Shown one piece after another: positions 23,978 through 24,184 of a stretch of 64,000 nt of DNA. Position numbers and translations under genes: made by a program. Positions within the stretch are counted from its first letter, which is position 1. Every line of letters starts with the position of its first letter. Below the pieces are notes generated by a model. That model did no database searches. It had not been told where the DNA came from and saw nothing but the letters and a program-made list of their open reading frames with translations. The stretch spans positions 23,870,001 to 23,934,000 of the forward strand of contig OZ024761.1 of assembly GCA_964016885.1 (NCBI GenBank), written 5' to 3'. This DNA comes from Eledone cirrhosa. Lineage: Eukaryota.

Positions 23978-23981
<4 letters not shown>

Positions 23982-24184
23982 AACCAGTAAGACCCCGACG
24001 GCTGAGCTCAAGCCGTTTCGACGGCTAATTCTGGACTAAACATTTAGTCCAGAATTAGCCGTCGAAACGGCTTGAGCTCAGCCGTCGGGGTCTTACTGGT
24101 TCCTATTACCCACTCTACTACCCTAAGTATTGAGTACTTTGGTGCGTTATGGTCCACCTGGTTCCTTACCACATTTCCTTCGTT
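23978..24184 (+). mobile_element. Family A copy 6 (perfect ~63-bp-arm hairpin with 2-nt loop)
   Basis: taggaaccagtaagacccc...ggactaaa ca tttagtcc...ggttccta plus tail. Confidence 0.92.

What the first reader, a model, noticed from the sequence alone, without database searches (positions are those of the whole stretch)
23978..24184. Family A (12 copies): hairpins whose arms match within a copy but differ between copies, built on a half-hammerhead
Seen: the outer arm varies between copies (ggaacgagtagga, ggaataagtatga, ggagaaagtatga, ggaaccagtaaga, ggaaaatgtttaa, ggaaaaagtatga), yet each variant is mirrored in its own partner arm with at most one or two mismatches. The turn-around point varies: at ggactaaa/tttagtcc in copies 4, 6, 8 and 12; at the gacggc-gagctc-gccg hairpin in copies 3 and 7; absent in copy 5. 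The arm reads GAAA-CGGC-(loop with GAGCTC)-GCCG-TC-GGGGTC, i.e. GAAA, stem III and a GUC triplet, but no copy has CTGAnGA. Inference: the palindrome is made anew at each insertion from a 5'-truncated HHR-bearing RNA, rather than inherited as a MITE TIR.
Basis: partly seen in the sequence, partly recalled or inferred. Interest (0 to 1): 0.78.

Follow-up and report, generated by a model that had tools for sequence, protein, structure and literature searches.

The report
Hairpin stubs of a Penelope-like retrotransposon
This 200-base hairpin is the short end-piece of a Penelope-like jumping gene with tens of thousands of copies in the genome; it likely forms anew at each insertion, when two short DNA copies of the element's RNA, begun at two different sites and likely stopped by the RNA's own start, are joined head to head inside a TA repeat.

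Summary
The 12 window copies are the extreme 5'-truncated class of a Hydra-clade Penelope-like element (PLE). A full pLTR-ORF-pLTR copy (L194, 719 aa) matches the focal arm at 97%. The genome holds 41,829 exact tail matches.

The missing hammerhead half is in long copies (5,865 matches). It lies 43 nt upstream and is mostly the U3-A8 variant TTGAnAA, not CTGAnGA.

Insertions from 0.1 to about 6 kb share one plan: (TA)n, an arm ending at RNA site 1, a variable head-to-head joint, an arm ending at site 2 (80 nt further, the 'tail'), (TA)n. Joints are not inherited: 22 of 22 differ in the largest subfamily, and the focal joint occurs 5 times genome-wide.

New point: arm 5' ends pile up at one place (125 of 205 within 14 nt; none in the 135 nt beyond -16). 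This is likely the mRNA start, which would make the hairpins double 'strong-stop' products. That step is inferred; no RNA data were available. Inverted PLE ends, tails and U3-A8 hammerheads are published.

The parts
23915..23979 (.). (TA)n target on the left; its last ATA doubles as the TAT of RNA site 1
23980..24040 (-). Inverted, tail-less arm: element positions +57 to -3 (0 = the A of TTTAGTCC); inferred cDNA primed at site 1
   Evidence: 98% to the L194 pLTR
24040..24041 (.). Head-to-head joint, no inserted bases; the CA 'loop' is parent sequence (-5, -4)
   Evidence: same 26-mer 5 times in the genome
24041..24183 (+). Forward arm with tail: element positions -5 to +137; inferred cDNA primed at site 2
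   Evidence: 97.3% to L194:3544-3692
24041..24053 (+). 5' wall where most arms end; CATTTAGTC, initiator-like (TCATTT / TTAGTC), inferred mRNA start
   Evidence: initiator consensus recalled
24053..24091 (+). 3' half of a type I hammerhead: stem II 3' strand, GAAA (24064-24067), near-palindromic stem III (24067-24085), GUC cleavage site after 24086, stem I 3' strand GGGGT
24092..24098 (+).
24104..24183 (+). 80-nt tail between site 1 (TAT at 24104) and site 2 (TAT at 24184); in the parent it is the leader upstream of the ORF start
24184..24209 (.). (TA)n target on the right
3845..3995 (+). Family copy 1, hairpin, joint near +11/+30
6438..6621 (-). Family copy 2, hairpin
10542..10678 (-). Family copy 3, short hairpin
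12040..12252 (+). Family copy 4, hairpin with a 9-nt templated insert at the joint; 99% to L194
12785..12920 (-). Family copy 5, tailed arm ending at position 0, no inverted arm
28865..28978 (+). Family copy 7, short hairpin, tail partly deleted
34100..34305 (-). Family copy 8, hairpin
34364..34509 (+). Family copy 9; tail-less arm reaches further 5' than the tailed arm
40436..40557 (-). Family copy 10; tail-less arm reaches further 5' than the tailed arm
55437..55588 (-). Family copy 11; tail-less arm reaches further 5', 23-nt duplication in the tail
60958..61139 (+). Family copy 12, hairpin with an internal deletion

Best explanation
The hairpin is a short insertion of a Hydra-clade Penelope-like retrotransposon, likely built at the target when the element's enzyme cuts both strands of a TA repeat, copies its RNA from two internal start sites 80 nt apart, runs off at what is likely the mRNA's 5' end, and the two short copies are joined head to head. 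Shown by sequence: the autonomous parent; the full hammerhead in long copies; one tailed and one tail-less end per insertion; TAT at both start sites; variable joints with 0-7 nt overlap or short filler; a sharp limit to the 5' ends at about -5. Inferred: two-strand priming (by analogy with the Anolis Poseidon protein in vitro); that the limit is a capped transcription start in the upstream pLTR, in the middle of the hammerhead, so that the mRNA carries only the 3' half and cannot cleave itself there; end joining by host repair; that long copies come from read-through or circular RNA. Odds: PLE truncation product made at insertion 0.9; two primed cDNAs rather than fold-back 0.75; wall = transcription start 0.6.
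For: Parent L194: inverted tailed arm, then a partial tandem pLTR-ORF-pLTR ending tail-less; focal arm 97.3% identical. One-tail rule in long insertions: 17 of 23 scored by script, 5 more by reading the printed ends, 1 tail/tail (L113, arms only 78.6% alike, probably two insertions), 3 of 26 not scored. 63 of 70 tail-less arms have TA directly outside site 1. Joints: 22 of 22, 14 of 14 and 13 of 15 distinct in three subfamilies; focal joint 5 matches in 3.0 Gb, 3 of them one tandem array of another subfamily. Wall: 125 of 205 arm ends at -6..+7, 6 at -15..-7, 0 at -150..-16, 7 beyond -151; independent 600 kb: 15 of 20 at -6..+7, none further 5'. The two arms start 80 nt apart yet end at the same place, so the stop is set by position, not by length. 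Arms also end at position 0 with no hairpin partner (window 12785; L282, L287, L293, L294). The tail-less arm reaches more than 8 nt further 5' than the tailed arm in 25 of 85 by script, 16 after reading by eye; the reverse in 9. PMC11167929: a PLE protein nicks and extends both strands and starts at two internal RNA sites that bound the tail. PMC2377424: Penelope transcription starts inside the pLTR.
Against: No RNA evidence for the start site. The cap-G test is confounded: G precedes position 0 in 66 of 100 against 33 of 100 at control position +5, but 6 of the 17 G cases inspected are explained by the opposite arm, and position -4 shows no G excess (6 of 100). No downstream promoter element was evident by eye. 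Ends spread over about 14 nt, not one base. The wall also coincides with the 3' strand of a small predicted hairpin at the tip of stem II. Palindromes lose their centres after insertion (own knowledge), which could also give variable and asymmetric joints. A few hairpins have arms of different variants (L245, L246, L132), so a single RNA template is not universal. The tail-selected sample is the first matches on contig C1, not a random draw.
Confidence: 0.68

Rival explanations
1. Same two-cDNA mechanism, but the wall is a block or a cut in a long RNA: RT stalls at the tip of hammerhead stem II (loop-loop contact or bound protein), or a nuclease cuts that loop.
For: The wall lies on the 3' strand of the predicted inner hairpin GGAUAAAU-UUUC-AUUUAGUCC. 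The cap-G signal is weak.
Against: RT passes the more GC-rich stems III and II first. Arms that pass the wall run on for more than 150 nt (7 of 7), as two RNA classes would give. TTAGT is kept in the diverged relative L101, where the hairpin sequence differs.
Confidence: 0.17
2. Self-priming or fold-back: one cDNA folds back and copies itself, or an antisense template self-primes, as proposed for rotifer PLE palindromes (PMC3846280).
For: Arms match within a copy. Perfect palindromic joints such as GGACTAAATTTAGTCC are the commonest class among arms reaching -4.
Against: Fold-back from the tailed cDNA cannot give a tail-less arm that reaches further 5' (16 clear cases), and fold-back from the tail-less cDNA cannot give a tail. 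In L137 and L194 one arm is hundreds of bases to kilobases longer than the other. Some hairpins have discordant arms.
Confidence: 0.08
3. A non-autonomous hairpin master (MITE- or SINE-like) spreads as a unit, and joints vary through later central deletions.
For: Would explain the wall and the mirrored arms. A three-copy tandem with one joint exists on contig C1375. The joint CTGGACTGAAWTAGCC recurs.
Against: That recurring joint occurs in four different subfamilies (L221, L228, L232, L266). The main subfamilies each have long copies of the parent element. The wall appears without a hairpin. The outer end of the inverted arm is fixed at site 1 rather than variably truncated. Joints carry filler, not only deletions.
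Confidence: 0.06

Closest known systems
Hydra-clade PLEs, e.g. Hydra-1_Obim (Craig et al. 2021, PMC8557442)
   Same: Single ORF of about 700 aa with C-terminal GIY-YIG, DKT, CxCx5C linker, CxxC and CxH motifs, (TA)n targeting, hammerhead in the terminal repeat; blocks such as RLINPxKSxIG and IIxHARKT match the paper's alignment by eye.
   Different: A separate family: different hammerhead sequence from Hydra-1_Obim, U3-A8 core where the listed Hydra rows have CUGAnGA, RWR for RWK, 3.1-kb unit, clear pLTRs, tens of thousands of mini-hairpins.
Poseidon PAc of Anolis (Frangieh et al. 2024, PMC11167929)
   Same: Two internal RT start sites bound the tail; both target strands are nicked and extended; AT-rich target; hammerhead cleavage not needed for insertion in vitro.
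   Different: Tail here is 80 nt (30-40 bp in that paper) and lies upstream of the ORF start; both start sites have TAT matching the target, whereas PAc start sites are reported as not homologous; no fixed 5' wall is described in the parts read.
Inverted 5'-truncated pLTR structures of Penelope in Drosophila virilis and Adineta vaga (PMC2377424, PMC3846280)
   Same: Head-to-head inverted copy, optional tail on one end, partial tandems, promoter within the pLTR.
   Different: Those papers favour self-priming or leave the mechanism open; here the dominant product has no ORF, and the copy number allows a test.
U3-A8 hammerheads of Schistosoma Cercyon PLEs (Cervera and de la Pena 2014, PMC4209133)
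   Same: U3-A8 core, long helix II, short helix I, palindromic helix III; ribozyme pairs on opposite strands 100-700 bp apart.
   Different: Longer helix III here; most genomic copies hold only the 3' half.
Non-LTR retrozymes (10.64898/2026.07.22.740005)
   Same: Non-coding, PLE-derived, hammerhead-related.
   Different: Retrozymes are head-to-tail tandems with whole ribozymes; these are head-to-head, with half a ribozyme, and show no sign of having masters of their own.
L1 twin priming; retroviral strong-stop DNA (both recalled, no call)
   Same: Second primer from the other target strand gives an inversion; run-off at the RNA 5' end gives a short cDNA.
   Different: In L1 the two pieces cover different parts of the RNA; here both cover the same part. 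Strong-stop DNA is transferred, not integrated.

Membership tests
EN+ Penelope-like element | Single ORF with PLE-type RT and GIY-YIG endonuclease | tested here: met
   L194:3780-5939, 719 aa, FDI / MG / YRDD and VIY..YIG motifs. Pfam and PDB sequence searches were blank; homologues carry GIY-YIG and HTH_animal, and a homologue's Atlas neighbours carry RVT_1 and GIY-YIG. No fold was obtained.
EN+ Penelope-like element | pLTRs from partial tandems, inverted 5'-truncated copy, tail on one end | tested here: met
EN+ Penelope-like element | Hammerhead motif in the pLTR | tested here: met
   not detected by Rfam
Hydra clade | DKT in place of DKG; RWK motif; no GxKF/Y | tested here: met
   DKT at 117, RWR (not RWK) at 37, no GxK[FY] (definition)
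Hydra clade | CxCx5C linker; CxxC and CxH round the conserved E and N; CCHH absent | tested here: met
   CNCPDRSIC at 572, CNLC at 670, CKH at 698; absence of CCHH judged by eye against the supplement alignment
Hydra clade | Insertion into (TA)n | tested here: met
   85 of 101 short hairpins have 4 or more TA units on both sides (the regex required at least one TA on the left)
Hydra clade | Phylogenetic placement with reference Hydra RTs | not tested
   Reference sequences were seen only in the paper's supplement and were not entered into tools
Type I hammerhead ribozyme | Core N3-UGA-N-N8-A, GAAA, UH and three stems | tested here: met
   Long copies only: 42 U3/A8, 10 C3/A8, 2 C3/G8, 1 U3/G8 of 55; 96.1% of cells paired, 5 pairs with double changes. 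Not met by any window copy.
Type I hammerhead ribozyme | Self-cleavage | not testable with these tools
   Needs an in vitro assay
MITE / foldback DNA transposon | Terminal inverted repeats at both ends and a fixed internal sequence per subfamily | tested here: not met
   Ends are asymmetric (tail); joints differ
Non-LTR retrozyme | Head-to-tail tandem units, each with a whole hammerhead | tested here: not met

The most novel reading that the evidence does not exclude
Most insertions of this PLE are double strong-stop products: the enzyme primes on both target strands from two sites near the 5' end of its own capped mRNA, so the genome records the PLE integration intermediate tens of thousands of times. 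The start site splits the hammerhead, which keeps the mRNA uncut. The telomerase-like RT may also write or lengthen the flanking (TA)n: at L325 an insertion has (TA)12 and (TA)33 where 13 paralogous empty-site matches have only ATATTGT.
Probability: 0.35. Interest if true: 0.75.

Novelty: new variant of a known kind. Interest (0 to 1): 0.52.

Why it matters
How Penelope-like elements make their inverted ends and tails is an open question (PMC8557442, discussion passages). This family offers thousands of minimal, young insertions whose ends can be read base by base. They argue for two independently primed cDNAs and against self-priming, and they predict a mappable RNA start. A nearly intact ORF (L194) and a 200-nt substrate make the model directly testable. 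Practically, such hairpins would be mis-annotated as MITEs or microRNA-like precursors. If the enzyme also makes (TA)n, it would link a retroelement to the microsatellite load of this genome; that rests on one clean site.

Tried and rejected
DNA search of the own genome returned nothing because common words are skipped; uninformative. CTGAnGA within 38 nt of GAAA: 53 hits, 30 inspected, none a family ribozyme. ACCCCCTGAnGAG: 63 hits against 22 control; 5 of 30 inspected were family or sister-family ribozymes. Rfam: no hammerhead in the window or in L194. Folding energy of the full ribozyme is no better than shuffles (z -0.13). RNA runs: no RNA holder listed. Cap-G test inconclusive. Empty-site search over 111 hairpins gave 4 hits: 1 clean (L325), 1 ambiguous (L148, empties with 0-15 TA), 2 spurious. 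Structure prediction was not obtained. Earlier findings of the scan: none. Literature searches for the short-hairpin class or the wall found nothing specific; subscription papers and Repbase entries are not covered, and supplements other than that of PMC8557442 were not read.

Full report
1. Observation. The focal element is (TA)32, an inverted arm (23980-24040), a forward arm with an 80-nt extension (24041-24183) and (TA)13. BLAST finds 12 copies in the window. The genome is 3.0 Gb. From a recalled SINE sequence and the likeness of the ORF to Hydra-1_Obim I take it to be a cephalopod; that is an inference. An exact 25-mer of the tail occurs 41,829 times, control 0. The two-arm pattern gives 27,139 strand matches, most hairpins counted twice.

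2. The parent. Three joint-region loci ran further 5'. A pattern from them gave 2,934 matches, many as opposite-strand pairs 33 to about 3,700 bp apart. Those copies continue into a T/C-rich 3' UTR and an ORF. L194 is complete: an inverted tailed arm of 830 bp, then a truncated ORF, pLTR, a 719-aa ORF, pLTR, and a tail-less end in (TA)n. The focal forward arm is 97.3% identical to it; no window copy reaches the ORF or the ribozyme core. The ORF has no Pfam or PDB sequence match but 2,054 homologues among 8,000 scored candidates, the listed full-length ones about 40% identical. It carries the Hydra-clade diagnostics of Craig et al.: DKT, RWR for RWK, no GxKF/Y, CxCx5C, CxxC, CxH, (TA)n targets. 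Of that paper I saw the abstract, passages, section 11 and parts of the supplement. Its Hydra-1_Obim has a different hammerhead, so this is another family. No tree was built.

3. The hammerhead. Long copies read ACCCC-TTGAnAA-G..CGGCTATT..(about 35 nt)..AWTAGCCG-TC-GAAA-CGGC..GCCG-TC/GGGGT; the core pattern has 5,865 matches. Of 55 distinct full motifs in my loci, 42 are U3/A8, 10 C3/A8, 2 C3/G8 and 1 U3/G8 (the loci were pattern-selected, and the G8 cases partly come from a search for them). The minimum-energy fold is a hammerhead three-way junction, but its energy is no better than shuffles (z -0.13), and Rfam misses it. On 14 hand-picked variants 96.1% of cells pair and 5 of 20 pairs change on both sides, including 3-8. 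The structure was drawn from these sequences, and three of the five double changes rest on one relative, L101. U3-A8 cores are published for Schistosoma PLEs (PMC4209133, passages).

4. One plan at all sizes. With 0 = the A of TTTAGTCC, the core is at -43, the cleavage site at +41, site 1 at +58 and site 2 at +138. In the parent both sites read TAT, which runs on into (TA)n in the insertions. Long inverted insertions have one tailed and one tail-less end in 22 of 23 scored (17 by script, 5 by eye; 3 of 26 unscored), with the same bulge variant at both ends, including rare ones (L128, L195). This matches the two RT start sites and two-strand extension shown in vitro for Anolis Poseidon (PMC11167929; abstract, main text and start of methods read).

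5. Made anew, not inherited. The sample was 95 tail matches from contig C1 plus 25 from 264 kb round the window. Joints differ in 22 of 22, 14 of 14 and 13 of 15 copies of three subfamilies; overlaps of 0-4 nt and short fillers dominate. The focal joint occurs 5 times in the genome. One joint recurs across four subfamilies, as a favoured repair outcome would. Arm identity within against between copies is 0.948 against 0.872, but private mirrored haplotypes are rare (1 of 50), so mirroring alone proves little.

6. The wall. 125 of 205 arm ends fall at -6..+7, 6 at -15..-7, none at -150..-16, 7 beyond -151, and 67 at +8 or later. Dropped before counting: three long arms mis-called at -33 because the alignment ran into the inverted arm, one spurious short arm, and the tailed partner arms of two double-tailed elements. 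An independent 600 kb gave 15 of 20 at -6..+7 and none further 5'. Because the arms start 80 nt apart and stop together, the limit is a position on the RNA. It holds without a hairpin partner. The sequence there, TCATTTAGTC, fits the invertebrate initiator consensus twice (recalled), and Penelope transcription starts within the pLTR (PMC2377424, passages and discussion). I therefore read the wall as the mRNA start. Against: no RNA data could be had, the cap-G test is confounded, and a small hairpin at the tip of stem II overlaps the site.

7. Two primers or fold-back. Arkhipova et al. read PLE head-to-head palindromes as self-priming on an antisense template (PMC3846280, passages). Here the tail-less arm reaches more than 8 nt further 5' in 25 of 85 hairpins by script; 16 survive reading by eye (5 alignment over-extensions and 4 internal deletions removed). 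The tailed arm reaches further in 9. Fold-back cannot give both classes. Later deletion of palindrome centres could, so the point is strong but not closed. A few hairpins with discordant arms suggest two RNA molecules in some events.

8. TA arrays. One insertion inside a dispersed repeat has long TA runs where its empty paralogues have none. This is one clean case in 111 hairpins searched, and slippage after insertion could explain it.

9. Verdict. A new, very abundant family of a known PLE clade. Inverted ends, tails, (TA)n targeting and U3-A8 ribozymes are known. The fixed 5' wall and the resulting mass of ORF-less 100-210 bp hairpins were not found in my searches. Of the retrozyme preprint I read part 1 of 5; of PMC6962438, passages. 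New variant of a known kind; interest 0.52.

Noticed in passing
L325 (G000:C1:75252597-75255619): Hairpin between (TA)12 and (TA)33 inside a dispersed repeat whose 13 empty-site matches read ATATTGT (or ATTGT) with no TA run: TA arrays arose at or after insertion. TA runs next to family ends are also longer than others (median 11 against 6 units, 35 against 2063 runs).
   Followed up: partly
window 1-64000: Local hotspot: 12 copies in 64 kb, against 29 blast clusters in 264 kb round it and 20 arms in 600 kb elsewhere on the same contig (stricter regex).
   Followed up: partly
L113, L146, L181, L196, L197: A large subfamily carries a C3/A8 mismatch in the hammerhead core (9 of 14 copies of that subfamily), predicted inactive, yet it has spread.
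   Followed up: partly
L002, L011, L023, L031, L005, L015: Family arms joined directly to other repeats that carry their own canonical CTGAAGA...GAAA hammerhead on the opposite strand or just upstream; possible template switching between PLE RNAs.
   Followed up: no
L046-L047 (G000:C22 near 23,982,500): Both arms tailed and about 170 bp of flanking DNA also inverted, a palindrome of about 630 bp.
   Followed up: partly
L274 (G000:C1375:41073-44098): Three hairpins in head-to-tail tandem with the same joint, separated by TA runs.
   Followed up: partly
L101, L226, L253, L272: A diverged sister family with a changed stem II, and a canonical CTGAGGA core in L101, also forms short hairpins.
   Followed up: partly
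window 31618-31736 (-): A single 5S rRNA copy, 108.7 bits.
   Followed up: no
window 19198-21561, 16434-17690, 25585-26030, 24906-25243, 5515-5890: Minisatellites with 19-, 28/90-, 41- and 155-bp units, and a two-copy 191-bp SINE-like repeat.
   Followed up: no
window 34363-34540: Two family copies back to back across a (TA)29 run, followed by a tRNA-like SINE head (label recalled).
   Followed up: no
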